A DNA stretch of 64,000 nt from contig NW_014040531.1 in assembly GCF_001186125.1 (NCBI RefSeq), positions 36,289-100,288 of the forward strand, in the 5' to 3' direction. Source of the stretch: Sphaeroforma arctica JP610. Taxonomy: Eukaryota. The position numbers were made by a program, and so were the translations under genes. Below are positions 27,201 to 50,900 of this stretch, piece by piece (positions within the stretch are counted from its first letter, which is position 1; every line of letters begins with the position of its first letter). Below the pieces are notes generated by a model, which had not been told where the DNA came from, did no database searches, and saw nothing but the letters and a program-made list of their open reading frames with translations.

Positions 27201-30200
27201 CACGCTGATAAGAGTATTCAACGACTTATCTGCATCTGTTTTCACTATCGGACTGGTTTCACGTAGTACAAATGCCGTAGACCAGCCAAACTTTTTTAAC
27301 TCACTTGTCACTCCACGTGTATCTCTCGAAATACCTCTTCTCACAGTGGTGGTTGTGCAGAAGGCTGAGGTTTACATGTTCGATGAGCCATCGTCGTACC
27401 TGGATATCAAGCAGCGTCTAAAGGCCGGCCAGGCCATCCGATCCCTGCTCACCCCCGAGAAGTACATTATCATTGTTGAGCACGATCTGTCTGTGTTGGA
27501 TTATCTTTCGGATTACGTATGTGTGCTGTACGGACTGCCGGGAGCTTACGGTGTCGTGACCATGCCTTTCTCTGTGCGAGAGGGTATCAATGTGTTCTTA
27601 GATGGGTTCGTGCCCACTGAGAATCTGCGGTTCCGACAGGAGTCGCTGAGTTTCAAGGTATGTAAGCACGTATCCAGCTTTATAGCCAGGAGTGAAACAT
27701 CCATTCGTCAAATTCTTCTAGCCGGCAGCGTTGCCGAAGATGAAATTTGTATTAGTTATTTGAATTTCAGACTAAGAATCGTAAATATCTGACGTGAGAC
27801 TTGCAACAAATATATATATGGAAGCTGAAGTGCCCAATATATTTACCACTGTTGTCGCCCTCTATCTCCATCTCGAAGGTATCAGATGCACTCGAACGTG
27901 ATGAGGGTAAGCAGCAGCACAGCAGTGTCTATCCCGATATGACCAAGAAGCTGGGTGATTTCAGCCTCGCTGTAGAAGAGGGTGGTTTCAAGGGTAAGCG
28001 TCTGTGTTTACTCAGGCTCGCTTTGTAGTCCTTACCGTCAGTTTTATTCACTGCGAAACAAGACATAGGGCGTACGGGACCGTCTTATATAATTTGATTT
28101 CTGTTGGTTCGATATTATTAGCCTGATTGTGCGTCTTCATCGTTCTTTATATGGCTTTAGATAATTCATGTCTTTCGAATCTCAGCCGCTCATAGGGACT
28201 GTCTCCAGTGTTCGCAAGTGAGAAATGCGAATGATTAGTAACGTATCGCTTACTTTGATTATCTTCTCACAAGTAATATTTACCAACAATTGATCACATA
28301 CCGCCTGGCACTTGCGCTTGCACTTTTCTGATTCATCTTGCCACCACCATGCTGACTCCCCGCAAATGTCCTTCGATTTCTAATACAGGATCAGAAATCG
28401 TTGTGTTACTGGGTGAGAACGGTATGGGTAAGACCACTTTCATTCGTCTGATGGCCGGTCTACTCAAGCCCGACGATGAGGAAATCTGTAAGTGATTTTA
28501 TGAGGTGGGCATTTGTTTTATTTTACTTCCTGTGTACTACCCCTGGTATCTACCTGAAGCAACTATTCTGATTTTTGGTTAGTGCCGCTGGACTATGGTC
28601 TCTTAATAAGTACCGAGTTCTGTACTTCATGATATGGTCACGTGAGTTTCACAATGTGTATGCATTGTACACAAACGTATAGATTGAGTATGGCCTGCGC
28701 GTTTATAATGGCTAAACCCGAACTCTTGCAAAATAACTGTTTAAATCTCATTGGCGCTCGTTCTATTATAAACCAATGCTCTTATACGAATCCGCCACAG
28801 CTGTACCCAAATTGAATATAAGTTACAAGCCTCAAAAGATCAGTCCCAAGTTTGAAGGTTCCGTGCGATCACTGCTACACATGCGCATCCGTGACGCTTA
28901 CGTCCTTCCTCAATTCGTAACGGATGTGATCAAGGTATGCCTGTCGTAACCGTGTATAGTATTTACGTGCCACGACATATTGGGAAGCGTGATATTTGAA
29001 TGTTATATTCTATGCTATATGGTATGAGAAGTCTCGCTTTCTTTGTGTCGCTGGCAAGGAATTTAATTGGGGGACTACGAAGATATGAAACTTCGTATCG
29101 GATCAGGTCGCAGGCATCTCGCTTAGTTTGTGTAAGGTGGAAGTTAACGTGTTTATATGCTGTTGAACGAAGAGGCTGAACGAGTTTAGCTGGCGTTTGC
29201 GTTAAGTATCACTTTGACGCTCTGCGGCTCTAGAACAACCCTTGGCACAATGTGCACGGACGTACACAAGTGCACACTCATATACACTCATACACAAACA
29301 GACGTGTATCAACACGCATGCACCCTTATACATACACTCACGTGGAGCATATGCAGACATGTTTGTACAGTTACACTTCTACACACAAATACGCGTACTG
29401 TACAACGCATGCATGTACGCTTGTACTATACACTCACTCGCCTGCAAGATATGAAGTCTGTATGTGCACCTACACTCACCAATACATGCACATTATACAC
29501 TCACCCGCAGCCCATGGGAGTAGATCGTCTAATGGACCAGGTGGTAGTGAACCTGTCTGGTGGTGAGTTGCAGCGTGTGGCTCTGTGCATGTGTTTGGGT
29601 ACCCCAGCCGACATCTATCTGATCGATGAGCCCTCAGCCTACCTAGACTCAGAACAGCGTATCATTGCCGCAAAGGTCATCAAGCGGTGAGTCTACATAG
29701 TTATTCACGTGTTTGAATATTTATAGTTTTGCATCTATGTAGTGCTGCTTGGTATGGATTCGATGTGGTCCCGCCTCAATTTCGTTTAGAGTTGAAAGAT
29801 TCCGTTATGATCAGATATTCATGCATAGTGCAACAAGCAGCCAAGCATACCAAGTCAAAACGGAGGTTGAAAGACAAGTATGTGTATCCTTCTCTTGCAT
29901 CACAAACACATTGTTGTGTCACACCATTGCGAACCGCTTCGGCTTAGAATCCGTCTACTATGTGGCTACGATTACCATCTTCCAATCCTGCAACTACTTT
30001 CGAGACAGGGTCCATGATCTATGTTTCGCGATAACTATCTTCTAATCCGTCGCAAATGCCTTCACAACCACAGCTTCATTCTACACGCCAAGAAGACCGC
30101 CTTCGTAGTCGAGCACGATTTCATTATGGCCACATACCTCGCCGATCGAGTGATTGTGTACGATGGTCAACCGTCCATCAAAGCTATTGCGAGATCGTAA

Positions 30201-31253: not shown

Positions 31254-32039
31254 GTGCCATAAACACCTACACGCTATGACCGAGTGTGGAGGCTGTTTGC
31301 ATTTGCCAAACTGGTCTTACTGTAAATAGAAATGCATGTAGCGTATATAAGGTTTCTGTATATATAAGTGTACACTTCCGTGCGCGCCTACAGGGGTGTA
31401 TATACCCGCATACAAATGGGTAGACATTTGTGTCCACCCGAAACGCCAGGTATTTATATCTTCAAAAGGTATTGTCCTGCGGTCAAGGTCGCTTCCAATG
31501 CGCCGGAAGTACAGGTCTTGGAGTGGATTTCTGGATTCCTGAGTCCTTACCACATGCGTTCTAGCCCACTGATTCGAAGTTTGTAACGTGTAGAGCTACA
31601 TTAGCTGCACTATATTAAACTTAAGATAGCCAATTGAAGAAGGGTAAGCATGCTTGCTACTCAGGATCCGTGGCGATTTTAATGCTCATCGTGGTACAAG
31701 ATGACACAGTTTATTTTCTTGCTTTTCTCTCATTAACGGTTATGTATGGTCAATGCCCAGGACACCGAAAAGTTGTACACCTACCATAATTCGGATAATC
31801 TTGTTCCGCTTAAAGAGCTCATCTATCATTTGTAGGATCCTCTGCGACTTGTAGCGAGCTGCCGTAAATTATGTCATGCTTCGTCGAATATTGTGTTTAA
31901 AACTCTGATTCCAGCTTCGTGAGTTTTTATTTATCCACGAAAGCAGTTGTACAGATGCTTCACAAATGTGACACTGAGATTGATAGCTATGGGAGGATTC
32001 TCAGTTTCAAGTTTTGGTTTTATATATTGTATTTTGGTA

Positions 32040-34435
32040 TATGCAGACTTCATATACTTAGTATACTGAGGTGTTAACATATTAAGCAGTTATATTAAAA
32101 TAACAAGAAGATTCGAACAGCCGAATACACTAAGCTCAGTTCCGTGTTTACCACTGTCGTCGTCTTGGGGCAGGTTTTCATGCTCACGAATGCAAGCGCA
32201 ATTTCTTAACAACGTCGAAGAGTGTTCGCTGATACAGTAGAAAAGATTGAGGGCGAGAAGGGATTCAACTGTGCCTCTGGAGTGTTGACTGAAACCACTG
32301 CTCTGACTGAGGGCGACTCATACAAACGCTTCACAGGAGGCAGATACTGCAATAGTACACTCATCTGGTTCGCACATCGCCTTAGCGCTGATCACCTATG
32401 GAGAAAACAAAACAGAGTGCAAGGATTACCGACGAGAAGAAGGCCTTCGTCGCACTTGATAATGGTGAAGCAGATATGCTAATGTGATATTATAGATTCT
32501 GTGGGTACGCGTCCTGATATCGCTTCCGCGACCAGTCCACTAAGTAGATACCTCGACCAACCGACCAAAGCGAGAGAGGCCGCTGCAAGAAATTTATGCG
32601 GATACTTAGATGCTACCATGCATTGGGGAATATACTTCAAGGCCGGGAAAGACTTGGAGCTTTGTGCTTATGCAGAGGCGAGCTATGGGGGAGTGAACGA
32701 CAAACGATCGCGTACTGGTTACTTGGTATTTCTCACTAATGCGTCAGTATACTGGGGGGCGGGTGGGGTGGGGGGTCAGACCCTTGTCACTTTAAGCACT
32801 TCCGAGTCTGAGTATGTTAATCTTGCAGAGTCCTGTCGTGATGTCAAGACCGCCTTGAACTTGCTACCTGAGCTAAGACGAGCTATTGATCGACCGGCAG
32901 TGTGCTACGAGGACAGTCAGACTGCTAAGATGACGGAAGAATTGTAAGCATTTTGATTTCAAATATTATTATGTGCGAGAGCTATGTGCAAAGAAGACTG
33001 TCGTATTGGAGGACTGCTGGTCTGATTTGATGATTGCAGATGCATTGACCAAGGCGTTGCCTAACGTTGCCTTCGTGAAGCACCGAGGCCACATGATGAA
33101 ACACCGATGTTACCGATATGCTGTCGTGACTACATCTCTATGTCGTTGTGGTCAGTTTGTGGGGGAGACACATGTCGTTCGTTGTTTCAGATCTTTTGTC
33201 CATAGGGGAGTGTTAAAAATCATATTGTCAGGCCTGGATGATGAAGTATTGGACTCAGACTTAGTTCGTCGACAAATTGATATTCTAAGTGTGTTTTCAT
33301 ATGTTGTGTTTACGAACATATTTTGTGTGCCGATTTTGTTTCACTTATTGAATGTACGATTATGTGACATGTATCATTTATAGGGAATAATCTTCTCGTT
33401 AATATGACACCTTGGCCGTTTTCTTTGAGTGACTATTCGTTGAGATATTGGACTTAAGATTAATTGTGTTTGTAAATATTGTGTTTGTGTTTTCAGAGAT
33501 GGAATTGAAGTAGACCGCACGCATCCGGTGGAATTTCTTTGGCAAAAGAAAATTTTCGAGCCGAGAGGGCCGTTCAATTTTGGCGAGAAATAGTATAGAT
33601 AAAATGTAAATAAGGTTGACTTTCACAGAGTTCAAAAATTCACATGAAAGCAGTCATCGCATGAATGTGTGGTACTTCGAATATTGGATTTATGAACCCC
33701 CTAGTGCCATAAGCAAGAAAAATGAGCATCGCAAGTATATTTGAACATATTTCCAGACAAAACAGTATAAAAAACCATATCTATATAGTACATCACTTAC
33801 TTGATATGGCACGTGCCATATAAATTAGATGCTTCGATAAAAAATGCAGCATTGCTGCCCCTACCGGAATGAATTTTGCATAGACAAAAAGGCTTCGCTT
33901 CTGCGACAAGTTTTGTTACTTGTACTATGGTCTGTGCAGTCAATCAACTATACGAAACCCTACATCGATACGATATTCTACCCGCTTGCATGTTGTTTGC
34001 ATCATCTAATGTGTGGTACAATGGGGCACCTCGAACATATGCTTAGACATGGTTCCAAGAAGCATTTTGTTGTATTCGCTTTCGTAACACAGTTAGTGGG
34101 GAAGTATAGTATTATCGACTCCGTACAACTTGATCACGTTCGATGGTACGTGTCTGGACATATATTCTTGTCAATACATTGAGACGTATTCTAAAAGACA
34201 TGCCGAATAACATTGAGGCACAGAATAAAAGCACAGCACGTATATTGTAATCTGCTGTAAATTTATCGTTCGGACTACTTGCTGGCTTCTGACTACATTG
34301 ACAAACTCCACTGGCGACAGGCGGGCACATGAATCAATATATTGTATCAAAGGAGTATATTAACTATTGACAGCATCACAATTTCGTTTGGATCCGGAAT
34401 TTATCACATTTTAGACATACACCAGACTCCAGGAT
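32040..34435 (+). repeat. Degenerate duplicated unit, copy 1 (blocks A 32040-32360, B 33660-33885, C 33955-34435), interrupted by the Copia remnant
   Basis: A matches 43660-43960, B matches 44120-44340 and C matches 43095-43600 (for example agattcgaacagcc.aatac, ttggatttatgaacccc, catcacttacttgatatggc, ttcgtaacacagttagtgggga, tttggatccggaatttat). Confidence 0.85.
32490..33410 (+). mobile_element. Ty1/Copia 3' remnant: RT C-terminus, RNase H, PPT and start of the 3' LTR
   Basis: TRPDIA..LSRY, YAEASYG..DKRSRTGY, TLSTSESEY, CYEDSQ, MIADALTKAL. The purine tract AGGGGAG at 33204-33210 is followed directly by TGTT at 33211. The LTR end is uncertain (possibly TGACA near 33409). Confidence 0.85.
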
Positions 34436-34992: not shown

Positions 34993-35735
34993 CTGACAGG
35001 CTGGCCCGTTCATATGATAGTATATAAAGAAACCTGGCCACTCTGGTGACGCAAGCTTACACATATATGTGTATATAGTATAGTTGTTGGCATCCTAGGA
35101 AGACTCTCTCGTGTTGTATGAATATAAATATATGACCGAACCTCTCCTTATCCCTGCCCTGCCAAACTAGGCCCACTTGTCGAACCTGCCAGAGCTGTAG
35201 ACGGCTTTGTCGGCACTCGGGGCTGTATGCAATGCGCTGTGCTCAAATAAGTTTGTACGAGTATGTTTATAGGCATAGGTGAACGCTACCCGCCGAGCTC
35301 AACAAGTGTTAATTTCAGTCTGACATGACACTGCCTCCAGACATGTGAAAGTTCCGATGACAGGATTGGTCCGTTCATATGAATGTATATAAAGAAAGCT
35401 GGCCACTCTGGTGATGCAAGCTTGCACATATATGTGTATAAAGTATAGTTGTTGGTACCGTAGGAAATCCCCTTCATCGTGGTGTATGGATATAATTATA
35501 TGACCGAGCCGCTCCTTATCCCTGTCCTGCCAAACTAGACCCTCTTGTCGTACCTCCCAGAGCTGTAGACGGCTTTGTCGGCACTCGGGGCTGTATGCAA
35601 TACGCTGTGTTCGAATAAGTTTGTACGTGTATGTTTATGGGCATAGGTGAACGCCACCCACAACTGAGCTCAACAAGTGTTAATCCCAGTCTGCCATGAC
35701 GCCGCCTCCAGACAAGTCGTAAAGGTTCCAATGAC
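34993..35735. repeat. About 365 bp direct tandem duplication at the 3' end of the Gypsy relic
   Basis: ccgttcatatga..tatataaagaaa.ctggccactctggtga ... agagctgtagacggctttgtcggcactcggggctgtatgcaat ... gagctcaacaagtgttaat occurs twice. Confidence 0.9.
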
Positions 35736-37490
35736 TGCATTCCTCTCCTCATCCGGGGTGACATCGAACGGACTGTCATATAGGAGCAAATTCGTGTACA
35801 TGGTACCCGTAGGGCACAGCTGTGCCTTGCCGCGCTCTAGCTTGCCTATGGGTATACGATACGCCCGCATGTCCGCAACGTGAACCCGATACAACTTGCC
35901 CGTTGCCCGAAATCTTACAATGTGGTACACCGGCGGATTTAACGTGGCCACCTCCGCCGGCCCACAAACTCCGCTTGAGAACCGTAGAGAAACTTTGCTG
36001 ACCAAAACATCACCATCCGGCCCACGTTGAACATTGGCACATTGTCCCTCTACTTATTTGCTGCTCGAGCCTGTGCCAACTGAGCCTTGCCGTCCATTGC
36101 CCACGCTTGCTTCTCCACCACCACCGGCTCGAGTTCCAAGAGTTCTGGTGTAGCGAAGTCACCTGTTGTCACCCTTGATGATTTCCACCAGATTACCATC
36201 TGCATGCTGGGAGAACAACCGGTCGTTTGTTGCCCGGGTGTACGGCGCCAAACCTGTTGTGAATGACTGAATTGCGTTGTACGCTGAAATGAACTCTGCT
36301 ATTGCGCCCGGCCCAAATAGCCTCGTTTGCAGCCGAGCGAAAGCGTGAGAGTCAGCGGTTGCATGTAAGACAGAGCACCTCTACCAGCTCATTTGCCTGC
36401 TGTCGGCTAAACTGCCTTTCGTACCGGGTCCACTCAGATCTACTTTGAAGCGCACCACGCGGTAGACTCGTTGACCATCAATGTACTGTCCTCGTCCGCA
36501 GTTAACTGGCGTTGTGGCCATCCCCACGGAACTATCTGCTGTTCTACAAATCGGTTGGTCTTCGCGAATGTATGTTCATGCCGTCGTATGGGCCGCCCCG
36601 CCGCTATGCGCGACATACTACCAATAATCAATAAGATGAAATTATACCCATCCGGACTACGAGTGTGATAGTAATAATCCATGTGGCTTGCTGCACCAAA
36701 CACCCGTGCCCGTGTCAGCTGGCATAGAAGCCCGCGCCTCAAACACACCGTTGCCCTTCTGCGGGCAATACACATCGTAAATGTGACAAAAGTGTTCAGA
36801 TCCCGCGGGATATTCTAAAATAACCCTCTGATCCTTGGCGGTCGTGCACACCTTTTGTTTTAGGGAAGGACCAGACCAAACTTAACACAAGGGCTGGCTT
36901 TGCACCCTTCCCACTTTTCCAAGTTGGCACCACTTTCTGACCACCCAATACATCAAACATAGAACGGGGTAGCCTTCTCTTAAGCCAAAGCACCTCTACC
37001 CTCTGGAACACTACAGTCATACTCCCGCTATAATCTTCCACACGGTCTGATACTGAAAGATTTTGTGTGGGTTGGGCTGCATAGCGTATCTCCGAGTGGG
37101 CCCGAGGCAAAACATCTTCCTTATAAGTCCGATCGTCAGTTTGACCACCCTTGTGCCCTTTCTGGAACTCCTGAATTTGCTGTAACGATTGCAACTGTTG
37201 CTCATTCTAATCTGTCAGCGGTTCAGCGATTTGTTGCCAGCCATTGAACACAACCTAGAATATCATTTTTCACCTACCGAGTACTGAGGCGCTGCTGCCA
37301 AGAACACTCTCACTCCCTCTGTTCTCCTTTCATCGCCGACCGCTGCTTCTGCAGCAAACGAATCCTTCCTACACTACTGATGTTGTTCACTCGCTGGCTG
37401 TTCACCTGGCCCCCTTACAAGGTCCGGACCATCCATTCGCCTCGTCGGCATCCTGGACCCTTCCTCACATCTGTCCCCTCTTTGACCACG
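34993..37490 (-). mobile_element. Ty3/Gypsy-type retrotransposon relic (integrase core plus GPY/F region; RT/RNase H not seen; frameshifted)
   Basis: Minus-strand peptides HMDYY..DGYNFILLIIGSMSR, WGWPQRQLTADEDS, QQANELVE, ISAYNAIQSFTTGLAPY and GPAEV..YRVHVADMRAY are typical Gypsy integrase motifs. Boundaries are approximate. Confidence 0.75.
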
Positions 37491-39264
37491 CTTTTTTTTC
37501 TTTCTTTTACAACCACTTAACATTGTCTCAATTATTATGTTCCTATCATCTAGGTCAATACCTAGGATTGCAACACTTAAAATCAGACAACCCTATCATC
37601 ATGGATGTTTCAGAACCCAACTAAGAACTGAAGTGGACACGTCTGAACATAACAGGCGACAACTACGACAAATGGTTACAGTATCTTACACTTGCAGCCA
37701 ATACAGACTATGTAGGTGACATTGAATCAGTTTTCAACTACAAATATGTCAAACAAGAACTATTAGCACGCCCTGCAGCTTCACCAGTCAAAAAACAGAC
37801 ACCAGCCACAGATCGAAGACGATTGGAAGCCCGCAAAACCTTCAGCAAAAACACTAACTAAAGATTACGGACGCTACCAAAGGTGCGGCGATGTCTACTT
37901 CGATCACTTAGCGAGGAGGTCATGGACTCACTCGCACGTGAGGAACTCATGGACGACCCCTGGACTCTACTCTTCTATCTCAAGAAATTGTATTCTCATA
38001 TGTCGACAAACGTTTCGAATACAATCACTCTTGAACTCCTACAAGAATTTCGTCGAGCCGAAGATGACACTATCCGAGCTTGGTCCCGACGATGTGCTCG
38101 CATCTGTACTGATGCTAAATCCCAAGGCACCCGCTTCTCTCCGGCCTTCATGCAAGGTATGTTTATATCGGGTCTCGGCGACCCCGACAAGGATATAATC
38201 AAACATTACTTGGTCAATAATGCTGAACGTGAAACCCTTACACCTATTGACTTATGTGTACGACTAGAGTAGTGGAACAAAGTCACCCCCATGGTCAACG
38301 CATACGCTACCCCTAAGACAGCAGCTATCTCCACCACATCAGCATCCAAATCACCTCCAACTACGGCCGCTTTATTGGTTACACTATTGAAGCGGAGGAC
38401 ACCTACCACACGCCCTCCCATACCGTGTTTTGTGTGCTATACCACAGGCCATAGTTCTAACAATCATCACAAAGGGTGTAAAAAATGTGGTGCGAAAGGA
38501 CACAAAGGGGAATCTTGCACCGCGACCAACCTGAACTGTACTACATGTAATCGCACCAGCCATGTCCAGGAAGTCTGTAACAAACGTATAAATAAACAGA
38601 ACTACAATTATGTTGGTCCCACTTTAGCATCCTTACGCCCCAGAATCAAGGCACTACACAACCCCAATAATAGCTTCCTTATCGATGGCGGTGCCGTCAC
38701 AACTCACGATACTTGCTCGATGCAAGATCGAGACAGGAACTTTCCCACTACTTCTCGCGGACGACAGCGAATGTATCGTCGACGAACGCGGCCACTTACC
38801 GCAACTGGGTACCATATATATCAGTCCAACAGTGAAACAGCAATTGCTATCTCAGAACAATTTACAAGAAGGTGGCTACGACATCTACTTTAAGGGCAAC
38901 ACAAAGACTTGTATTCTCTCCAAGGTCAATAACACCCTTTCTATCCCTCGTACTCAAAGGGGGTATAAAGCATCTTGCTCAGACATTATTACACAAATCA
39001 TATCCACCACTGAGAATAACAATCATGACGCACCACAACACACAGGTACATCTTGCGCCACGCCACCTATGGTATGTACCGCCACCCCAGCACCCACCGC
39101 GGACACCACAACCCCAGCATCACCGAATCTTACAACTTCGACCACCACACAAACATACGATGAATTCCACAGCATCAATAGCCATCGCAGCCGCAACACC
39201 ACTTTAAAAATGACAGCCAAGAAAGGGATCATACTGACGCACACACCACCTGTCGGAGTGACAA

Positions 39265-39640
39265 CGGAAGAATGGATGATCAATATGCAAGATTTTCAAC
39301 AAGGCATGAATCACATAGAATTCCAACCCTCCATTGACCTATTTGCTTACAAGTGTACGCGTTGCCACAGACGGGCGTAAAATAGATCTTCTGAAGGAAC
39401 GAGCATACGCTAATCCAATTTGGCCAGACACATCTGAACTACTCGACAGCATTATCAATACCGCCGCTACCGCCGCAATACTCATCCCACTCCGTCCACA
39501 CGCAAAGTGGTGGAATAAGCTTCTTGTGCGCTTTCAGTATGCTTTATATATATTCCAGAACCACCCTAGCACTATCCTTCGCCACGATTTCACCGCGGTA
39601 GGAAAACCTTCCTGGGCTTACTCTCTCATCGCCAAAATTG
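39265..39640 (+). pseudogene. N6-adenine DNA methyltransferase-like (phage Dam/DIRS MT-like) domain embedded in Copia pol
   Basis: EEWMINMQDFQQGMNHIEFQPSIDLFA (ORF 38685 frame), frameshift, then ATDGRKIDLLKERAYANPIWPDTSELLDSIINTAATAAILIPLRPHAKWWNKL...GKPSW. This follows the W..F....DLFA, DG, YANPP[WY], L.P.R...WW order of this family. The assignment is by motif recognition only. Confidence 0.68.
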
Positions 39641-42600
39641 AACCCGTTCACTCAGCCATTTCCCCCCCCACACGAACTCCATACTGCTATTACACATGTC
39701 TTGGCCGACCCGGGATTTACAAAGCATTGTCACGTATGTATGGAAGGAAAGGTCAAGGCGCAAAATGTAGCACATACCGATTCGACCACTAAAGTCGGTC
39801 CTGGTGAACAATTCCCCCTCGACCTCCTGGGTCCTATGCTCGAAGATCACTACGGGTACCGCTATACCCTCAACCTTATTGATGATGGCAGCCGTTTTGG
39901 CCTGCACGCTAATCTTAAGACAAAGCAAGACATGCATATCCATCTTGAAAAACTCATCCTACAGATTCCAACATATTAGAAACCCCACACATTGACAGCA
40001 GACGGTGACACCACGTTTGTTTGTGCCAAAACCGTGTCTATGCTTCAAACACACAAAATTCACTTTACGAAAACACCACCACATACCCAACAACTCAATG
40101 GAAAAGTTGAACGACCGCAATGTACCCTCAACGACCTCACTCGCACCAAACTCATTGATGCAAGGATGCCCTGGCAATTGTGGAGTGACGCAAAACGTTG
40201 GGCAGATATGATCAGAAATGACACACTACCACAAAGGGCATTACATCATACTCCAATTGACATATGGCACCGTAAAGAAATTCCACGACCACACAACGCT
40301 CGGTTTGGCTGCCTTGTCATATTTAAACCGGAGGGGCTACCTAAGAAGTCAGCCGACAAGTATGCTACTCAAGGGGGGTGTGGAATTCTACTTGGACGTT
40401 CACACAACTCCACCCCCGATACATGGCATATACAAAGCATTTGTGCACAACGCCACCGGGACTCTCAAAACGTTGTTTTCCTCCCCGACAAGAGACCCCA
40501 GTGGTCTCCTGACGGCAACCGCGCAACACTCATCGACACCCCCACTTCCTATGCTACACCGACAGACTGGCATACTTCCACAACCCTTGCGACTATCACT
40601 ATACCACAAATCAGTACCCACCCCCCCCCCCCCAACCGTTGGGACACTACCTCCACCTCATACACCCACTACACTAGACGACACTTCCCCAGACGACACT
40701 GACTCTTCCCCTGGCCACCATGACCACAGACATCGACACACCCACTCCGACCTCCCCTCCTCCTTCCACACACTCATCAGTACACTCATTTGGCAGCAAT
40801 ATTGCAAATGACACAAAAAATACTTTCGACGAAGTCTCTTCTGACTCGAATTCAGAATACGAACTTATACGCGACAACCATCATCACACTGATACTGATA
40901 TCAACCTCAGCGTTTTGGACGAGTGCCCTCCATCCACACCTTTCCCACACGATGACTCCACTCTCAGTATCATAGCTGAAAGTGGGCACATATCAGACCC
41001 TACTCTCCACCATCGGCCACTTATTGACTCCACTCCCGCTGTTCACGTCCGTTCCACACAGCCCACATACTGATGTGATCCCACTCTTTTGGAAACACTA
41101 GTAATGATGGACCTCGCCGTACCTAAGAGTATCGCCCAAGCCCAACGAATGCCCAACTGGCCACTATGGAAGGCCGCTATCGATACCGAACATCAGGCAT
41201 GACATCATACCCCAATCCCAGGTTCCACGTAATACACGTATCATACATTCTAAGTACGTACTTGTTCGAAAGCATGATGAAATGGAAAACTGACCATTTA
41301 AAAGCCCCGCATGGTTGCTAGGGGGCGACCAACAGCAACACGGCGACTCATATAGTGAAACATACGCTCCAGCAGCTTCATCGGTTGCCCTTCGCACTTT
41401 CATCGCTACCGCCGCCTACGAGAACAAAGAGATCCATCATGTCGATGTTGCCACAGCTTATCTTTACGCAAAATTAGGTATTCCTGAATATACGTATCCC
41501 CCGAGAGGGGCTGCCGAATTAGGATTTTACCAACCCGAGACGGTACTCAAACTTACGCGCGGCTTATATGGCTTAAAACAGTCTGGTAGACTGTGTAATT
41601 TTGATATGGGCGATAAACTACAATTCATTGGATTCGCCCGTACTGAAGCCGATGAATCAACTTGGGTCCACTCTACTAAGGATATCACTATTGTTCTATA
41701 TGTCGACCAAATAGTTCCTAAGGTCATACGAAATACCCAAGATGCACTCTGGCTATTTCAAAACTTAGCGAAACACTACATTATCAAGAACCTGGGACTC
41801 GCACGTCACCCTGTCGGACTTAAAACCCAACAGCATCCTGATGGCTGCATCGAAATCGGCCAAAAGGTATACGTTCAAATACTCCTTGATACCTTCGAAC
41901 TTGTGGACTCTCCAACAAAGGCTACTCCCGGCACTCATCTTCACCCCAGTTCACTGACAAGCGATTCCTGTCATGAAAAATACAGATCACTCTTAAGGGC
42001 ACTAGGTTTTGTGGCTAACATGTCCCGTTCGAATATTGCCTGCACACTTAACCAACTTGCATCATACAGCAACAAACCCCTCACATCACATTGGACGGCG
42101 CTACAGCGTATTTTATCATATCTATCTGCCACCAAACATTTTACAACAAACACACCCACAGCTAAATCATTGCAAGCCTGTTCTGATTCAGATTGGGGTA
42201 CCTGCCTCGGCACACGCAAGTTTCAGAGTGGCGCTCTTAACAGCACACCTATTTTATGCAAATCTGCTAAACAAAAGACCATCGCCGGCAGCAGTGGTGA
42301 AGCAGAATATATTGCCGCCGCCGAAATCACGCGAAACATAGCTTGAATCTGCATTATATTAGAAGGCATGAAACACACATTGCAAGCACCCACTATATTA
42401 CATATAGACAACCAATTTGCCATTAAGGTATTTTTGGGCACATGCACACGAAAAGGTCTCAAACACATTGAGGTCAAGGAACACTACATACGCGACTGCG
42501 CTCGACGCAACGTCATCGACCTTCATTACATTTCTACATATGACAATCCCGCGGATTTACTCACCAAGAGCTTATCTCGACCGAAACACGAACATTTCAG

Positions 42601-42718
42601 TGCCATGTTATTATACGCCCATGACGATTACTTCGCCAAGGCTCAATCTATTTGGTTACTACGGCTACTTCGTAAATAGGTACGGTCTCAGCGTATCAGA
42701 GTTTAGCTTCAAGGGGGG

Positions 42719-42893
42719 TGTAGAGTAAGAATTACTCTCTCTATAAATCCTAAACACATCACTAGTTATCCGTACCTCCGACCGCATGGCCTGAACGGAT
42801 ATTTACACCTAGCATAGACTTATAACTAAATATGTCTGACATCAACCAAATAAAATTATTCATTCGGGTTAAGAACTTTATTTCTATTCTACA
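42719..42893 (+). repeat. Copia LTR (175 bp)
   Basis: Follows the PPT AAGGGGGG (42711-42718). It starts TGTAGAGTAAGAA and ends TTTCTATTCTACA (imperfect terminal inverted repeats), and contains TATAAA and AATAAA. Confidence 0.88.
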
Positions 42894-42904
42894 GGTTATG
42901 GGCC
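42894..42904 (+). promoter_or_regulatory. Primer binding site, half-tRNAiMet type (GGTTATGGGCC)
   Basis: Lies immediately after the LTR-terminal CA and matches the copia-type internal tRNAiMet PBS GGTTATGGGCC(CAG). Confidence 0.8.
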
Positions 42905-43094
42905 TCGATTCACCGCTGAAGGTTCGGCTGCTGGATTTCTCCCATGGGATGATGCCGAACCCACCATAAACCCTTGTACTTGTAAGTCAGGGTCCACAAC
43001 TGTTCGTGCCTGGAACCTAGGCACTCGCTCGCGGGTATCACTCCCGACTGATCATAAACAGGACGATAAAAAACAGTACTTGCCGCTGCTTATA

Positions 43095-44420
43095 GAAAAT
43101 CCTACATTGCTGCGATATTCTACACCTTCTGGGTTTGTTTGCTTGTTGTTTGCATCATCTAATGTGCGTCTTGGACAAGGAACGCCTCGAAGATATGGTT
43201 ATCAATGGATATAAAATATATTTTGATGCATTCACTTTCGTAACACAGTTAGTGGGGATATACAGTAGTATCGACTTCCGTACAATTTGGCTACCTCCGT
43301 TCGCAGGAGGTTGCTCGATGGTACGTGTCTGAACACATGATCTTTTTACCAATACATTGAAATGTGTTCTAAGAGACATGACAATTAACAGCGAAGGCAC
43401 AAAATAAAAGCACAGCACGTGTACTGTAATCTGCCGTAAGCTATGCATCCGGTCTACCTGATGACGTCTAACTGCATTGATAATTTTCACTGGCATCAGG
43501 CAGGCAGATGCGTGAGAATAACAGTATTTCAATTTATTGATAGCATCACACTTTTGTTTGGATCCGGAATTTATATATTTTTTATAGACACCAGAGTATT
43601 TTCGTCCCTATTAGATTTCTAACCAATACAAAGTTTCGATTGTATAACATATCGTACTTAGGTATACGAAGACTTCATATAGTTAATATATGTAGGTGTT
43701 ATCTTATTAAACAGTCATATTACAACTACAAGATTCGAACAGCCAAATACAAAACCCAACTTACGCCATGATCAGTTCCATGTTACCACTGTCGTCGTCT
43801 GGTGACAGGTTTTCATGCTGACGAGTGTAAGAGCAATTCCTTCACAGCGTCGAGGTGTGATCGGTGGTATTGTAAGAGGGATTGAAAGCGAAAAGATTCA
43901 TTGCTCTGACCGTGAGCGACTCATAGCTACACAGGAGACAGCTACTTTGATAGTGCCATGTATGGAATAGTTGTGGCTGGCATAGAGGCCGCGGGGAGCA
44001 GAACGGTAGTGCTCTGGAATCGGTTGGACGCGCAACCAACATGGCTACATGTGCTTTGGATGCCAGCTGAACGACATTAGCCACCGATATCTGTCAAATG
44101 CTATCGAGTGTCAAACGTCATTGCATGCAGGTGTGGTGCGTCGGAGATTGGATTTATGAACCCCCGAGTGCAATAATCAACAACGAGCACCACAGATTTA
44201 TTTGAACATATTTCAAGACCAAATTTTCAATAAAGTATCTATATTCAGTATATCACTTACTTGATATGGCGCATACGATCGATGGTATGTTTCGATAAAA
44301 AGTGTAGCATATGCTGCCCCTAGCGAAATGATTTTCATAGCCAAGGGGTCGATCTATGACGGCTTTCTTTACATAGTACAAGGGAAAGGGCATCTCGAAG
44401 ATATGTGTAGCTATTTTGTG
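43095..44420 (+). repeat. Degenerate duplicated unit, copy 2 (order C'-A'-B')
   Basis: Same shared strings as copy 1. Confidence 0.85.
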
Positions 44421-44997: not shown

Positions 44998-47918
44998 CCA
45001 GTTCCGGTCTCTCGTAATTATTTCTGTCGTCATCGCCGATGCGAGGATACGCTGGTATGAGTCCGTCTTGCATCCCTGTTTCGGTACACAAAAATAATGA
45101 ATAGATCATTTACATTAGCGACGTGTCAAGGTATCATCATCGAGTGTTCTGAAAATGAATCAAGGAACAAGAGCACAATGCGGGACAGAAAGCATCCGAA
45201 ACATGTCTGTAAGGAAAGAGCTACAAATAGAGCACAAATGAAGTGAACTGGTGTACGAGTGCATTTAGTATGTGCGCAACTGTGTACATAGAAAGTGCAT
45301 ATATGCATATACGTACAATGACCTTTTCGCAGTCAAAATTGAATACTATGTTTAATTCGCTGAGCGCATACGAAAGTAAAATCATCAAACAGTAAATTCA
45401 TACACTGACAAGAATAATCGCGACCACTCTTGAAATATTATACAGGAGTATTCACTTAATGCAACGCCCCCAGTACTAATCTGCCCGATGGTTTCACACT
45501 CAAAGACCAACTGCAGCTCAGCAGCCATATGCACGCGATGGGAATTGTACGGACTTCAATTGTGTACATCATACCATCACCACCCCATCTGTGAAACTCT
45601 GTTAGCTTGGGGCACAGCTCCTGGGCTCTAATTCTCAAGCAATTGCATACTAGTACACGATTTTAGACTGGAAAAGAAATGTCACAGCCAACAGATGCGA
45701 TATATGTGGTGCGCTGATTGGAGTGAAAAGTTGATATTACTTACACAGACTCAACACAAAAACGGAACAATCGCAAGAGCAACACAAACCTCGCGATCAG
45801 TGCGTCTAAGGTCGTTCAATATAGCGATGTGTCTCACCAAGTATTGTAGTATGTTTTGCTAGCATTCATACAATATAGGCGTGTTGGAGTAGTGCCCCTC
45901 ATCCACCACACAGCAGTCTATGGTGGCCCAAATACTGATAGCAATAGAAGGTATAAGCGATATGCGCATTTAGAGTCGGAAACAAACATACCTATATATA
46001 TGTTGTTGTATATCTTCCAATATACATCCCGTACTTTTCTCGCCGGATGGAATAGACCCTGCAAATTAATGAGGCAAGATAGGGCCAATGAATAAGAGAA
46101 GTCGCGTAATCGCATAACAATGAGATAGGCTGAACTACGTCAGACTGTCAACCAAACTTCTATTACATCCTTGGATGTCTAGACACCACAGTCGGATCTC
46201 AACGAGCGATATAGTAGATATTGTAATCGGTTCAAATCCAGATGTATCCTTTTCGGATTTCAGTCGAGATAATGTTTTACACTAGATTTCAAACACACAC
46301 ACTTGAGGAATTCAAAATCCCAACCCATGATAAGTAAAACTCCAAGCTCAAACACACACTCTTAAACCAACCACTGGTCGCCCCAAAACAAAACTCTCAA
46401 TCCTATTTTTTTTAAGCTGACACATGTGTTTACAATGCGGACTTTAAAATCGAGCACACACTGAAATCTATTTTGCAGCTTATGCCAATACACATACCTG
46501 CAACGTGTACTGTAACACTCGAGCGGGTCCCAAACAGAAGGTTAGACCCAGCACAGCGTCCATTGTGGCGTTGATGACGTGCGGTGATGTTTCAAAGATG
46601 TTCGGCCACACGAAGTTGAGCAGATGAGTCATGGCGTCTTCACAGCCGAAGCCAATCACACCCAATGACATGTGTTTGACTACTGTGCATGCTGTTTGTC
46701 GATGGACCTAGTGTATTGAAAGTATCACCATGGTGACGAGAGTGGAGAGTGAGTGGGAATATGGGTGGTATATTCAGTGGCGTATTGCAAACGATACATT
46801 GGCGATGAAATCTTGAGGAAGGCAGGAAGGTGAAGGAATGTCCGCTTTAAGTGCATGGCAACGAAGAGAGAGAGAGATGCTAGATAGGGGTCGGGATACT
46901 AGCTCAGTGATGTAGGGCCTATACAATCATATGTATAGAAAGCACGTAGTAGAAGAGAGTGTGGTATCATACGCAGCACAGCCAAAAATAAAAATAAAAA
47001 ATGTATGGAATTTGCTTTGAGTAATAAAACAGTTAAACACGCCCAATTTAAGTACGGCACTTTCTTCCGCTGCGACCTGATTAAAAAGTCAGATGACCAA
47101 ATACGCCTGCGATTGCTTAGAATTTACCGCGGAACGTCTTACACAAACTTGTACTGAAACTTAAACGCATTCTCAACACATACACATAGTTGTACAACGA
47201 GCAGGAAAGAGCACAAGCTTCCGATGACAAAGTCTTTACATACCAAGTCACGGTCCATGAGCGCATCCTCCAGTAACGGCGTCACTGCGTAGATGTAATC
47301 CTTGCCCATCTCGCCGATGTATTCAAACACAAAACTCAGACTCTTCAGCACCCCGTTCTGCACATTGAGCTCGGGCACACGGTACTCGTTCATCAGATGA
47401 GGGATGACCGTGAATGGCGAGCAGGTCTCGGCCACGATAGCTATCGCAACCGTCGTGCACACACGGTTTTGTCGCTCTTGTACCTGGGGCGTGTGTGATT
47501 GTGCGAGAGGAGAGTTAATAAGGGATATAATCTAGTAGAGCCCAGGGGTTGATAGACTGAAAGGGAAGATGAACCGAGAAAGGGTTTGGCAAGGTATGTG
47601 TAAACATCAGAGTACATTGAGAGATGTTGTGGAGGATATCCAAAAAACACTGAGCGAAAAGTTTCGCGTTTGAGTGTCTGACAATATGAGACTACAGTGC
47701 ACAACGGGATATACATCGACTTCATGACAACTTGGCTAAGTTGATATATATGTCCAGTATTTGCTAATGTGTGATGCTAGACTAGTATCATACTGTATAA
47801 CAATGGCGCTTCTAAATCACGCTTGCTAGCCACAGGTGGATGCCCCCATGATAAATACACACACACATCTAAAAGCATACACACACACACACAAGCATAC
47901 ATACAAACACAAACACAA

Positions 47919-47952
<34 letters not shown>

Positions 47953-50900
47953 CACATTTGACAATTGAGCAACCCACCTTCAAATTGTTTAGAAGAGTAA
48001 TGAGCACATCCTGTGGACCGATCGCCTTTGCAATGTAACCAAATGTGTTGACGGCCGCCCTTCTGATACTCTTCTTGTGCGCCTTCAGTAATTCCAACAA
48101 CTCAAAGCAAATGCGCATCCATTCTCGCGCACCTACGTACTCGGCACCCCTGTCGGCTATACGTCCCACCTGCAGCGATAATGACGTTCACGTAAGTCGA
48201 CGTAGGATGAAGCGGAGCTGTGACCTTTTAAATCTGTGGATATCTAAGACTTTGGTATTTCTGTGTTGTGTGAAAGCCGTATATAAGGGCTTGGTAAGAT
48301 CTGTGAGTATACAAATTGTTGGTACTTGTGCGATATGTGGGAAGATCCAACAGTGCACTACTGCGATGTTCGAGATGATGATGAGCACATTTGTGATATG
48401 TGAGGTGATGTTTTGAGAGTGTTGTGCAAGGTGGGGGACTGTTCTGCATAATTGTCCCAGTGAATTATTGGCACACATATGTGTGCTGCTTTGCAACTGC
48501 CATACGAGTACACACTTCGATAGGCTAAAAAAGCTACAACATAACCATATACGCACACGCATGTTTTCAATCACAACCAAGTGCACAAACGCGCACGCTG
48601 GACCGGTTAATGACCAAAGCACTATAATGCAAACAATCGGTTTGTTGGAGGCCGCATTGACGTACCAAATCGATGCAGTTCTCCTGCACCTTCTCGTGCC
48701 TATTTTTCAGAATTGGGGTAAGTCGTGGTAACAGATCTCGGATCGGGGGAGTCATTTTGGACATGCCGATCACATTGACAACCGCCTTCAAGGCGCCCAG
48801 AATTGAACCCAGCACCTCCGGGTACTCTTCACCAAGGTACTCATACAACACCAAACCAAGCTGTATGAGGCCGAAGTATAATGTAGCATGTGAAAAGTTA
48901 GCATTGCAGTAGAAGAGTCAAGAGCTCTAACCATGACAGATATGGCAAAGGTATGCGAATTTTAAGCATGGTGTACCAACACAACGGCATGCGCTCCATT
49001 ATATCAATAACAAACGATGTTATACTCATACTAACGTCTTAGGTGACGGGCACGAACCAGCACAGAACCATTGTGTACGTGCAAACAAAAGGTAGTACGT
49101 CATGTTCGGCGAGTGTGACTACAACCATTTACGTGAATATCGAATACGTTGTGTTGGAAATTACACACACACAGAGAAAAAGAAGAATCTGTATCAGCCC
49201 ACATTGGAAATGAAGTGGAAAATGGCCGTGAAGATCATACACAACCCAACAGTTCTACGGTAGCAAGCACTGGTCATCAGCAACAACTCTCTGGCCCTAA
49301 GCAATACTAAATGGGCCTCATTAGGACATACCTGGGACATGAGCTTGTCTTCATTACAGGTTTTCATCACCACCGCAATGCGCGACATGAGATCGGCACT
49401 CTGCTGGCGCACCTTTGCGCTGCGATTGTTGAGTCGCCATAGCAACACTCCCACTATCTGCGGCAGGTAGGGCTTTGTGCGGATACCTAGTACGTTCACA
49501 ATGGTACCGAAACCGTTCAGCATGACACTGTCCTCAGTGGTTTGTTCCTATGGGTGTGGAAATTGTCGCGTTGATTGGGGTTACGAAAAAAGCGCCATAT
49601 TTATATATATGAAATGAAATGATATGTGAAATGATATGATATGATACGATACGTTAAAAAATGATGAAATAGCAACGCGAAATCGGTAAATTATACCTGG
49701 AAAGCGAACAGGATGCCATCGATCAACAGCTCCTCTAACCTCTGGTCCACATCAGCGGCACCGAGATTGCCCAGGACTTTCTCCACACACTCCATCACCA
49801 TCTTACGGTAGGGTTCCGATTCATCCTTCAGATCATTGACGATTCGGCCAATGATCTCTGAGACTCCCACCTGAGAATATAGACATTTGCATAGACAAGA
49901 GAATGAGCGTGGTTGGTGATCGTGGGTAGACGCATAGGCTTGGATAGAAACAAGTTTGCAAGAGATTTAATATAGGAGCCAAAATTGATATGAGAGTGTA
50001 GGTAAGCTCATGGTTGTAAATACGAAGTAGGAAGTGTAGGAATCAGCGGCAAAACGACCAATAGATCACTTCTGGTAGAGCGTAGCTCTGCATCAGCGTC
50101 CATGGGTCGCCAACGAGGTGTGATAGTAATGCCCGATAAAATCAAGCGGTCTTTTTAACTTAAATGTCTTTAGTATGAACGCACGCGCTCAACTGAAGTG
50201 CACATCACCACGCATGAGTACCGGATGCATGAACAGCCCGATGGAAAATAAATCCGAAACTCAATCAGTTACAGACCAAAAAATAGAACGTACCCAGCAA
50301 AAATGCACAACATTTGCGTACCAATGCACACTAAAGATTTTAATTTGTACTGCTTAGTACACGCTCCCGACACACCACATACTCGACGTATACGAGATTT
50401 ATGCACGCTAGTACATACTTGCGAACTAAGTTATATGTTCGTTAAACTCATACACCCTTCCGGAGACCATGCATACCTTATTTGCCAACTCCACAGTTGT
50501 GTCCACCAATTGACGTGCGATCCGTCTGTCGGGCGCAGTACGTCTCACCCAGAACTGCTCAAAGAAAGGCGGCAGAATCTCCTCACGGATATACTGAGCT
50601 TCCACACCATCTGTGGCACAACATTGCTTGACCACCTGGATAGACCAATGCGAATGGGATGCTGAGAAACATTGCGACTCGAATGCTAGAAAACCGCGCA
50701 TTCGGATTCACATGATTGAGCAGCTGTATGCTTTCGTATCTGCACAAAATCAATCCACTTGATCTGTAGTGGAAGCACGTGATTTTGCGAGGCCCTGGAT
50801 AGAATGGGAACCTTGGGTTTGGTGTTGTTTGGGTGTTTGGCAATGCATTTCACCCAGAACAAGCAAAGCAATTAGAGATGAATCTAGTCGGTCGGTCGCA

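What the first reader, a model, noticed from the sequence alone, without database searches (positions are those of the whole stretch)
39168..39739. Copia retrotransposon with an N6-adenine methyltransferase-like domain inserted inside the integrase HHCC zinc finger
Seen: the integrase His pair (FHSINSH, codons 39168 and 39183) and Cys pair (HCHVCMEGK, codons 39728 and 39737), normally a few tens of residues apart, are separated by about 180 codons. The insert reads EEWMI..DFQ..IEFQPSIDLFA / DG.KID...RAYANPIW...AILIPLRPHAKWW...GKPSW, and its start is in frame with upstream pol. Known: W..F...DLFA (SAM-binding motif), [DN]PP[YW] (catalytic motif IV) and L.P.R..WW characterise phage-Dam-like N6A-MTases, which DIRS elements are known to carry; cytosine MTase capture by retroelements is reported in algae and dinoflagellates. 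I do not know of a Copia with a Dam-like domain nested in the integrase zinc finger. Inference: the MTase would be physically part of the processed integrase, placed to modify or bind the cDNA or target site, for example adding 6mA to mimic active chromatin or evade silencing. This copy is decayed (a frameshift after DLFA, and NPIW instead of NPPW).
Basis: partly seen in the sequence, partly recalled or inferred. Interest (0 to 1): 0.9.

Follow-up and report, generated by a model that had tools for sequence, protein, structure and literature searches.

The report
Copia integrase split by Dam-like domain
A broken Copia-type jumping gene carries a domain related to adenine-methylating enzymes wedged between the two halves of what is likely its integrase zinc finger, a layout that its relatives share and that would likely bring the domain onto each new DNA copy, perhaps to mark it as active; we found such domains in print only for other retrotransposon classes.

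Summary
Real, and a family trait. The window holds a decayed Copia element (RVT_2, E 5.6e-26; order PR-IN-RT-RH). Its integrase His and Cys pairs are 542 nt apart, against 24 residues in a canonical Copia finger. The insert is a Dam-like (PF05869-type) methyltransferase. An HMM of Ty3-type DAMs hits it at E 9e-18. An in-frame relative from Sphaeroforma arctica (SARC_09551) has the same His-DAM-Cys layout, hits Pfam Dam (E 1.2e-5, below Pfam's cut-off) and folds like CAPAM/T4 Dam. Diverged copies in the same sequencing runs share the His/DAM junction, so this is no one-off nested fragment. NPIW is not decay: the relative has it too, and it keeps Asn, first Pro and Trp. DAM-carrying LTR elements were described in a May 2026 preprint, but all Ty3/Gypsy. 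This scan's six earlier look-alikes were also Ty3. I found no Copia case and no insertion inside the finger. Likely mechanism: the domain rides inside mature integrase and methylates cDNA or target adenines (about 45%); a non-catalytic binder is the main rival. Not shown: an intact full-length copy, zinc binding or activity. The highest-depth relative appears to have a stop in the domain.

The parts
37601..38620 (+). gag, broken by stops at 37622, 37859 and 38270; CCHC knuckles at about 38426-38580
   Evidence: translation, stops, weak zf-CCHC E 0.026; other copies match 37643-37715, 37943-38259 and 38483-38582
38684..38695 (+). protease motif DGGA (Copia D-S/T-G-A type, recalled); frame changes shortly after
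   Evidence: motif reading by eye
38727..39137 (+). post-protease region and low-complexity spacer, in frame with the His pair
   Evidence: collinear with P0001 residues 20-148; 35% and 26% identity
39138..39251 (+). N-terminal half of the likely integrase zinc finger: H-x4-H (39168, 39183) plus following helix
   Evidence: 59% identical to P0001 149-182; helices in model; no Pfam hit
39255..39353 (+). Dam-like domain, N part (W..F helix, DLFA motif I region), in frame with pol
   Evidence: aligns to Ty3-type and phage DAM N-termini through P0001; 35% to P0001
39354..39360 (+). break 1: about 38 nt missing relative to P0001, with a frame change
   Evidence: tblastn: P0001 216 ends at 39353, P0001 232 starts at 39361
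39361..39645 (+). Dam-like domain core: DG.KID, NPIW (motif IV variant, 39412-39423), ILIPLRP..WW, GKPSW
   Evidence: Ty3-DAM HMM E 8.8e-18; 48% to P0001; P0001 Pfam Dam E 1.2e-5; fold CAPAM Z 9.8
39646..39727 (+). linker with predicted helix before the Cys pair; break 2 (frame change) near the C-run 39662-39669
39728..39751 (+). C-terminal half of the likely zinc finger: C-x2-C-x2-G-K
   Evidence: 58% to P0001 354-372; same pattern as the canonical finger in L001
39800..40255 (+). integrase catalytic core, D39821, D40001, E40109 (D,D35E), one stop at 39977
   Evidence: foamy virus integrase E 2.9e-4
41294..41929 (+). reverse transcriptase, Copia type; YVDQ at 41699 in place of Y.DD
   Evidence: Pfam RVT_2 E 5.6e-26
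42170..42600 (+). RNase H, Copia type (SDSDW ... KHIEVK), stop at 42344
   Evidence: motifs by eye; stop
42711..42718 (+). polypurine tract directly before the LTR
   Evidence: sequence
42719..42893 (+). single LTR, 175 bp, 6-bp inverted ends; no second LTR found in the window
42894..42904 (+). primer-binding-site-like GGTTATGGGCC directly after the LTR (Copia tRNA-iMet type, recalled)
   Evidence: a related contig has this LTR end upstream of gag (joint 42903 to 37943)

Best explanation
This is a decayed copy of a Copia retrotransposon family whose pol gene carries a Dam-like adenine methyltransferase domain between the His pair and the Cys pair of its likely integrase zinc finger, so that the domain would likely travel inside the mature integrase and likely methylate adenines on the new cDNA or at the insertion site. 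Shown: Copia identity, the domain's family and predicted fold, the position, and the same layout in a diverged in-frame relative and the same upstream junction in further copies. Inferred, step by step. (1) The ~145-residue domain loops out of the variable stretch between the two ligand pairs, which still close on zinc, since both halves are more conserved (59% and 58%) than their surroundings. (2) The protease cannot free the domain without cutting the finger in two, so it would stay in integrase, be packaged, and sit on the cDNA ends and target DNA. (3) NPIW keeps the Asn, first Pro and aromatic that do the chemistry, so it may still transfer a methyl group to adenine N6 in cDNA, the RNA:DNA hybrid or target DNA. 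(4) As the 2026 preprint proposes for Ty3 DAM-LTRs, host AMT1 would then maintain 6mA and keep the new copy in permissive chromatin. The domain was probably captured from the Ty3 DAM-LTRs of the same host group. Odds: architecture about 0.92, part of mature integrase about 0.75, catalytically active on DNA about 0.45.
For: Copia: RVT_2 E 5.6e-26; integrase core before RT with D,D35E. Family: of 10 hits at E<=1e-3 among 1.84 billion representatives, 6 hit Pfam Dam (E 2.4e-14 to 1.8e-5; one search scanned 7 of the 10). The other 4 are tandem-repeat proteins by eye. The best, P0001 (S. arctica SARC_09551), runs in one frame through post-protease region, H-x4-H, Dam, helix and C-x2-C-x2-GK, collinear with the window, with 194 residues between His2 and Cys1 against 24 in a canonical Copia finger (L001, PF13976 E 1.3e-12). 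Other copies in the same runs: a 3,039-bp contig matches both gag and the DAM core at near-equal spacing in 3 of 4 runs. A 71-nt piece spans the His-helix/DAM junction without gaps in 2 of 4 runs, and a second contig covers the DAM start in 4 of 4. Selection-like pattern: DAM core 48% against spacer 26% and post-protease region 35%. Insert composition matches the rest of pol, with no convincing termini. Fold: AF2 pLDDT 75; best matches CAPAM/PCIF1 Z 9.8 (rmsd 3.0, 134 aligned), KsgA/Erm, T4 Dam Z 8.1, E. coli Dam Z 8.0. Motif IV chemistry rests on D/N, the first Pro carbonyl and the aromatic (PMC3814359 passages). Donor: pairwise scores of P0001's domain are 137-207 to five Ty3-type DAMs, 60 to one DIRS-like DAM and 44-111 to six phage DAMs. 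Ty3 DAM-LTR copies in S. arctica are more often 6mA-marked and expressed (preprint).
Against: No intact Copia ORF holding DAM, integrase core and RT together was seen. This copy is broken, and P0001 ends before the integrase core. The DAM-to-Cys junction is shown in only two copies. The relative of highest depth (about 14 times this copy in X5; depth is no copy number) appears to carry an in-frame TAA in the DAM N part, read by eye from one loose end. In the 3,039-bp contig the offset pair at 39421/39427 may read as a stop at the motif's Trp (inferred). The finger halves are assigned by pattern and position: Pfam PF13976 hits neither half, the canonical His half does not align significantly (1,919 and 1,107 of 2,000 shuffles as good), and the Cys half only weakly (32 of 2,000). 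The Cys region of the model has pLDDT under 50. NPIW departs from (D/N/S)PP(Y/F/W) (PMC7544214), and the Copia branch is long (1.25-1.47). P0001 is under Pfam's Dam cut-off (25.5 against 28.1 bits). Eukaryotic DAMs gave no 6mA in E. coli (preprint), and DIRS domains were judged likely inactive (PMC4738411 passage). The tree cannot separate a Ty3 from a DIRS donor (p-AU 0.40), and the Ty3 sequences were picked as best hits while the DIRS-like one was not.
Confidence: 0.48

Rival explanations
1. Same architecture, but the domain is a catalytically dead binder. It would hold a flipped or methylated adenine, cDNA ends or a host factor, and so tether the intasome or steer integration towards 6mA-rich linker DNA, as a chromodomain does for chromoviruses.
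For: Family-wide NPIW in place of NPPW; long branch after capture; no activity of related DAMs in E. coli; DIRS domains judged likely inactive; a place inside integrase suits targeting.
Against: Asn, first Pro and Trp, DLFA and the motif III-like Asp are all kept in P0001. The preprint itself blames its negative assay on context.
Confidence: 0.28
2. The domain methylates RNA (the element's genomic RNA, cap-adjacent adenine or primer tRNA) inside the particle rather than DNA.
For: Best structural matches are RNA enzymes: CAPAM/PCIF1 Z 9.8, DIMT1 9.1, KsgA/Erm 8.2-8.9. PCIF1-related clusters in the Atlas. DIRS domains are placed with PCIF1 in PMC4738411.
Against: Z-scores of DNA enzymes (T4 Dam 8.1, E. 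coli Dam 8.0) are close, and a shared fold shows no substrate. The nearest sequence relatives outside retroelements are phage DNA adenine methylases.
Confidence: 0.11
3. The domain is a tolerated passenger: captured once by recombination, kept in frame only because pol must stay open, folded but useless; the family now survives mostly as broken or non-autonomous copies.
For: No intact element seen; apparent stop in the high-depth relative; the stretch between the ligand pairs varies in length (24 residues in L001, 30 in P0005).
Against: Core identity of 48% where the nearby spacer is at 26%; DNA matches of 80% or more from other copies fall inside the domain; motifs I, IV and the C-terminal GK..W are kept.
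Confidence: 0.1
4. One-off nested fragment of a DIRS or Ty3 element, or a misassembly.
For: Two frame changes; a Ty3-like integrase fragment lies on the minus strand just upstream (by eye).
Against: In-frame relative with the same layout; shared junction in further copies; single contigs span the region with 0 differences; longest flanking direct repeat 7 nt, about what chance gives.
Confidence: 0.02

Closest known systems
DAM-LTR retrotransposons, ichthyosporean lineage (Fernandez-Moreno et al., bioRxiv 10.64898/2026.05.21.726589; whole main text read; supplements not seen)
   Same: Eukaryotic DAM family domain inside the Pol of an LTR element; same host group for the nearest named relatives (S. 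arctica, Abeoforma); collinear motifs including the C-terminal G(K/E).PW-type motif.
   Different: All lineages in the text are Ty3/Gypsy-like and were classed by RVT_1; 'copia', 'Ty1' and 'zinc' occur 0 times. In the Ty3 example P0005 the domain lies between RNase H and an intact finger. Here it is in a Copia (RVT_2), inside the finger, with NPIW for NPPW.
DIRS retrotransposon MT/Dam domain (PMC3783388, PMC4738411, PMC5890265; passages)
   Same: PF05869-type domain in a retroelement Pol; same eukaryotic clade against phage DAMs (support 98/99).
   Different: DIRS have tyrosine recombinase, no protease or DDE integrase, and the domain follows RNase H; the one DIRS-like domain tested scores far lower (60 against 137-207).
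Ty1/Copia elements with a canonical GAG-pre-integrase finger (PF13976; example L001)
   Same: H-x4-H ... C-x2-C-x2-GK between protease and integrase core; order PR-IN-RT-RH; RVT_2; PPT and TG..CA LTR.
   Different: 24 residues between His2 and Cys1 in L001 against 194 in P0001 and about 181 codons here.
CAPAM/PCIF1 and phage Dam-type N6-adenine methyltransferases
   Same: Predicted Rossmann methyltransferase fold (Z 9.8 to CAPAM, 8.1 to T4 Dam); phage adenine methylases hit P0001 at E 2e-3.
   Different: 13% or less identity in the structural alignments; no target-recognition or WW domain; NPIW; embedded in integrase.

Membership tests
Ty1/Copia LTR retrotransposon | RVT_2-type reverse transcriptase | tested here: met
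   E 5.6e-26, above cut-off
Ty1/Copia LTR retrotransposon | integrase upstream of RT (PR-IN-RT-RH) with D,D35E | tested here: met
   foamy virus integrase E 2.9e-4 at 39800-40255; D39821, D40001, E40109; rve only E 0.11
Ty1/Copia LTR retrotransposon | two LTRs, PBS after the 5' LTR, PPT before the 3' LTR | tested here: inconclusive
   one LTR with PPT; PBS-like site follows that same LTR; no 5' LTR in the window
Integrase HHCC zinc finger | H-x4-H and C-x2-C between protease and core, conserved in relatives | tested here: met
   59% and 58% identity to P0001
Integrase HHCC zinc finger | profile or pairwise match to PF13976-type fingers | tested here: inconclusive
   no Pfam hit on halves; His half not significant, Cys half 32 of 2,000 shuffles
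Integrase HHCC zinc finger | four ligands bind one zinc | not testable with these tools
   needs a bench test; model coordinates not available and Cys region pLDDT under 50
Dam-like N6-adenine methyltransferase (PF05869, eukaryotic DAM family) | profile match | tested here: met
   Ty3-DAM HMM E 8.8e-18 on the window core, 3.1e-24 on P0001; phage-DAM HMM 5.2e-9 on P0001 but 0.23 on the window piece; Pfam E 1.2e-5 on P0001, under the gathering cut-off, none on window pieces
Dam-like N6-adenine methyltransferase (PF05869, eukaryotic DAM family) | Rossmann methyltransferase fold | tested here: met
   model of P0001 145-373; CAPAM Z 9.8, rmsd 3.0, 134 aligned; Foldseek best E 1.4e-3
Dam-like N6-adenine methyltransferase (PF05869, eukaryotic DAM family) | motif IV (D/N/S)PP(Y/F/W) | tested here: inconclusive
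   NPIW in 2 of 2 Copia copies read: 3 of 4 positions kept, second Pro replaced; NPPW in 5 of 5 Ty3-type relatives
Dam-like N6-adenine methyltransferase (PF05869, eukaryotic DAM family) | methyl transfer to adenine N6 | not testable with these tools
   no assay; related domains negative in E. coli
DAM-LTR as described in the 2026 preprint | eukaryotic DAM domain within an LTR-element Pol | tested here: met
DAM-LTR as described in the 2026 preprint | Ty3/Gypsy-like RT (RVT_1) and organisation | tested here: not met
   RVT_2, integrase before RT
DAM-LTR as described in the 2026 preprint | raised 6mA and expression of copies | not testable with these tools
   only assembled contigs were available
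DIRS retrotransposon | tyrosine recombinase, RVT_1 RT, MT after RNase H, no protease or DDE integrase | tested here: not met
   DDE integrase and RVT_2 present; domain lies before the integrase core

The most novel reading that the evidence does not exclude
The first Copia lineage with an adenine methyltransferase, and a natural integrase-methyltransferase fusion built by splitting the zinc finger: the enzyme writes 6mA on its own cDNA or on the target site at the moment of integration, so that each new copy is born looking like an active promoter.
Probability: 0.35. Interest if true: 0.86.

Novelty: new variant of a known kind. Interest (0 to 1): 0.66.

Why it matters
It extends Dam capture from DIRS and Ty3/Gypsy to the other large LTR superfamily, apparently by a jump between superfamilies inside one host group; an RVT_1-based screen would leave such cases unclassified. 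The position is informative. A domain inside the zinc finger cannot be released without splitting the finger, so it ties the still unknown function of retroelement DAMs to integrase and the pre-integration complex rather than to RT. That makes the open question (what do these domains methylate or bind, and when) testable with one protein. It would also show that the integrase N-terminal finger tolerates a 170-residue insertion, which bears on engineering targeted integrases.

Tried and rejected
No genome was held for the window, so no genome-wide copy survey or dN/dS.

Pfam and PHROGs on window pieces of the insert: no hit.

Word-index protein searches: the window piece against longer proteins found 0 of 97 candidates. 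P0001 residues 148-375 found only itself among 231. Alignment A3 found only 2 of its own members among 791. These are weak evidence of absence.

No related loci in metagenome or viral contigs. PDB sequence search with A3 gave nothing under E 0.4. The Atlas search by features among named clusters had no usable hit.

Complex prediction of the two finger halves with zinc: no verdict (score 0.07); neither for nor against. Full-length P0001 fold: pLDDT 28, discarded.

A 7-nt direct repeat at 39230/39680 was rejected as a target duplication: chance level and out of codon register. RIP-like mutation was rejected: CpA is not depleted (o/e 1.18).

No RNA holder was listed. The high-depth relative shows no like depth over integrase core, RT or RNase H; lack of cover proves nothing.

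Only one DIRS-like domain could be found, too few to fix the donor. In the HMMER list P0002, P0004, P0006 and P0007 were dropped as tandem-repeat proteins.

Not in print: nine searches listed no Copia with a Dam domain. Only searches were listed in full or nearly so; one search showed 20 of 128. Most subscription journals, Repbase and the preprint's supplements were not seen; its supplementary architecture figures could hold RVT_2 cases.
Full report
OBSERVATION. His codons stand at 39168 and 39183 and Cys codons at 39728 and 39737, with 542 nt between the inner pair. The motifs EEWM, DLFA, NPIW, PLRP and GKPSW are at 39267, 39336, 39412, 39487 and 39601. The stretch crosses two frame changes. 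Single contigs from 4 of 4 runs span 39120-39800 with no difference, and one contig joins the insert to RT and the LTR. The breaks and the linkage are therefore in the DNA; these runs may include the window's own source.

THE ELEMENT. From about 37601 to 42893 lies a decayed Copia: gag with knuckles, a DGGA protease motif, an integrase core that matches foamy virus integrase (E 2.9e-4) with D,D35E intact, RVT_2 (E 5.6e-26), RNase H, a polypurine tract and one 175-bp LTR. RVT_2 marks mainly Ty1/Copia (PMC3783388 passage). No 5' LTR was found, and a primer-site-like sequence follows the one LTR. The host was not identified directly. The window has intron-split ABCE1-like and SF3B1-like genes (by eye), and the nearest named relatives are ichthyosporean.

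THE INSERT. Pfam and PHROGs miss the broken pieces. HMMER over 1.84 billion representatives gave 10 hits. Four are tandem-repeat proteins and were dropped; the other six all hit Pfam Dam. Three of them have Ty3-type context (P0005: PR-RT-RH-Dam-finger-rve; P0009 from Abeoforma: Dam-rve; P0010: RT-RH-Dam), two are lone domains, and the best is P0001, Sphaeroforma arctica SARC_09551 (E 6.4e-22, 47%). An HMM built from the five non-Copia domains alone finds the window core at E 8.8e-18 and nothing else under E 0.4 in 1,693 segments. An AlphaFold2 model of P0001 145-373 (pLDDT 75) matches N6-adenine methyltransferases. CAPAM/PCIF1 comes first (Z 9.8, rmsd 3.0, 134 aligned), then DIMT1, KsgA, Erm, T4 Dam (8.1) and E. 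coli Dam (8.0), over model residues 39-187. Foldseek ranks CAPAM first too, at E 1.4e-3.

A FAMILY TRAIT. P0001 is collinear with the window in three frames and itself unbroken: post-protease region, H-x4-H, helix, Dam domain, helix, C-x2-C-x2-GK. It has 194 residues between His2 and Cys1; a canonical Copia finger fetched here has 24 (L001; PF13976 E 1.3e-12). Identity by segment is 59% for the His half, 35% for the DAM N part, 48% for the DAM core, 37% for the linker and 58% for the Cys half, against 26% for the spacer and 35% for the post-protease region. The runs that hold this copy hold further diverged copies. A 3,039-bp contig matches gag and the DAM core at similar spacing (1,041 against 1,125 letters) in 3 of 4 runs. 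In X1, six other contigs touch 39120-39800, at the His pair, the DAM start and the DAM end. A 71-nt gap-free piece spans the His-helix/DAM junction in X5 and X16. The insert has the base composition of the rest of pol and no convincing termini. A one-off nested fragment is excluded for practical purposes.

CORRECTION ON NPIW. P0001 has NPIW too, while all five Ty3-type relatives have NPPW. It is a lineage variant. The consensus is (D/N/S)PP(Y/F/W) (PMC7544214 passage). The chemistry is credited to the D/N side chain, the first proline's carbonyl and the stacking aromatic (PMC3814359 passages), and all three are kept. Activity is neither shown nor excluded.

IS IT THE FINGER? The assignment rests on pattern, position and conservation. 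It is not confirmed by profile: PF13976 hits neither half, the canonical His half aligns no better than shuffles, and the Cys half is marginal. P0001 has C-E-A-W 26 residues after His2, where the canonical finger has C-E-A-C after 24. This may be a relic of the original Cys pair at the insertion point. However, the window has T-E-E-W there and the W belongs to the DAM's own first motif, while the downstream Cys pair is the conserved one.

ORIGIN. In trees of 13 and 14 domains the two Copia sequences group together (99/99, 97/94) inside a eukaryotic clade against six phage enzymes (100/100, 98/99), on a long branch, with no resolved sister. Pairwise scores and a shared C-terminal motif favour the Ty3 DAM-LTRs, above all the S. 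arctica type (207 and 180, against 60 for one DIRS-like domain). One DIRS-like sequence is too few, and the clade test is not decisive (p-AU 0.40).

HOW IT MOST LIKELY WORKS (inferred). The domain is translated in Pol and loops out between the two ligand pairs. It cannot be clipped out without splitting the finger, which in Ty1 serves integrase multimerisation (PMC8487063 passage). It would therefore be carried in the particle and the intasome next to cDNA ends and target DNA. I put about 45% on its methylating adenine there, seeding 6mA that host AMT1 would maintain, as proposed for Ty3 DAM-LTRs. I put 28% on a dead binder or targeting module, 11% on an RNA substrate and 10% on a passenger. 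Against activity: related domains gave no 6mA in E. coli, DIRS domains were called likely inactive, no intact full-length copy was seen, and the relative of highest depth appears to have a stop in the domain (by eye).

WHAT IS KNOWN. The May 2026 preprint (whole main text read; supplements not seen) reports DAM-LTRs in five lineages, including S. arctica, all Ty3/Gypsy-like and classed through RVT_1. It never mentions Copia or a zinc finger. Its screen used E 1e-5, and P0001 scores 1.2e-5 in my scan, so this family may have been missed or left among its 46% orphans (inference). Nine paper searches listed no Copia with a Dam domain (see Tried and rejected). This scan's notes hold six Ty3 cases in other genomes and no Copia case.

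VERDICT. Observation confirmed; interpretation partly supported; a new variant of a recently described kind, with an unusual and testable architecture. Interest 0.66.

Noticed in passing
window 42719-43090: The only LTR has the polypurine tract before it and a primer-binding-site-like sequence right after it, and no 5' LTR exists upstream of gag. This suggests a truncated shared-LTR tandem or a circularly permuted one-LTR circle.
   Followed up: partly
window 37643-37715, 38483-38582, 38767-38876, 39228-39298, 39565-39644: Contigs of 12-22 times this copy's depth match gag, the post-protease region and both ends of the DAM. One loose end reads as an in-frame TAA in the DAM N part. Possibly an amplified non-autonomous derivative.
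   Followed up: partly
P0001 residues 187-190: C-E-A-W stands where a canonical Copia finger has C-E-A-C; possibly a relic of the original Cys pair at the insertion point.
   Followed up: partly
window about 35950-36900, minus strand: Broken Ty3/Gypsy-like integrase core and C-terminal region, head to head with the Copia (read by eye); no DAM found next to it.
   Followed up: partly
window 32483-33380, plus strand: A second, unrelated Copia RNase H fragment with a purine tract (by eye; no Pfam hit).
   Followed up: no
window about 26000-29700 (+) and 47100-58600 (-): Intron-rich host genes resembling ABCE1/RLI1 and SF3B1 (by eye).
   Followed up: no
window 33949-34426 / 43091-43595 and 32009-32356 / 43631-43954: Dispersed repeats of 72-76% identity flank the region; also a 183-bp and a 100-bp direct repeat at 35002-35659.
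   Followed up: no
L009 2266-5036, minus strand: A DIRS-like gag and RT-RH-Dam pol (motif FPPF) inside a 30-kb IMG/VR contig.
   Followed up: partly
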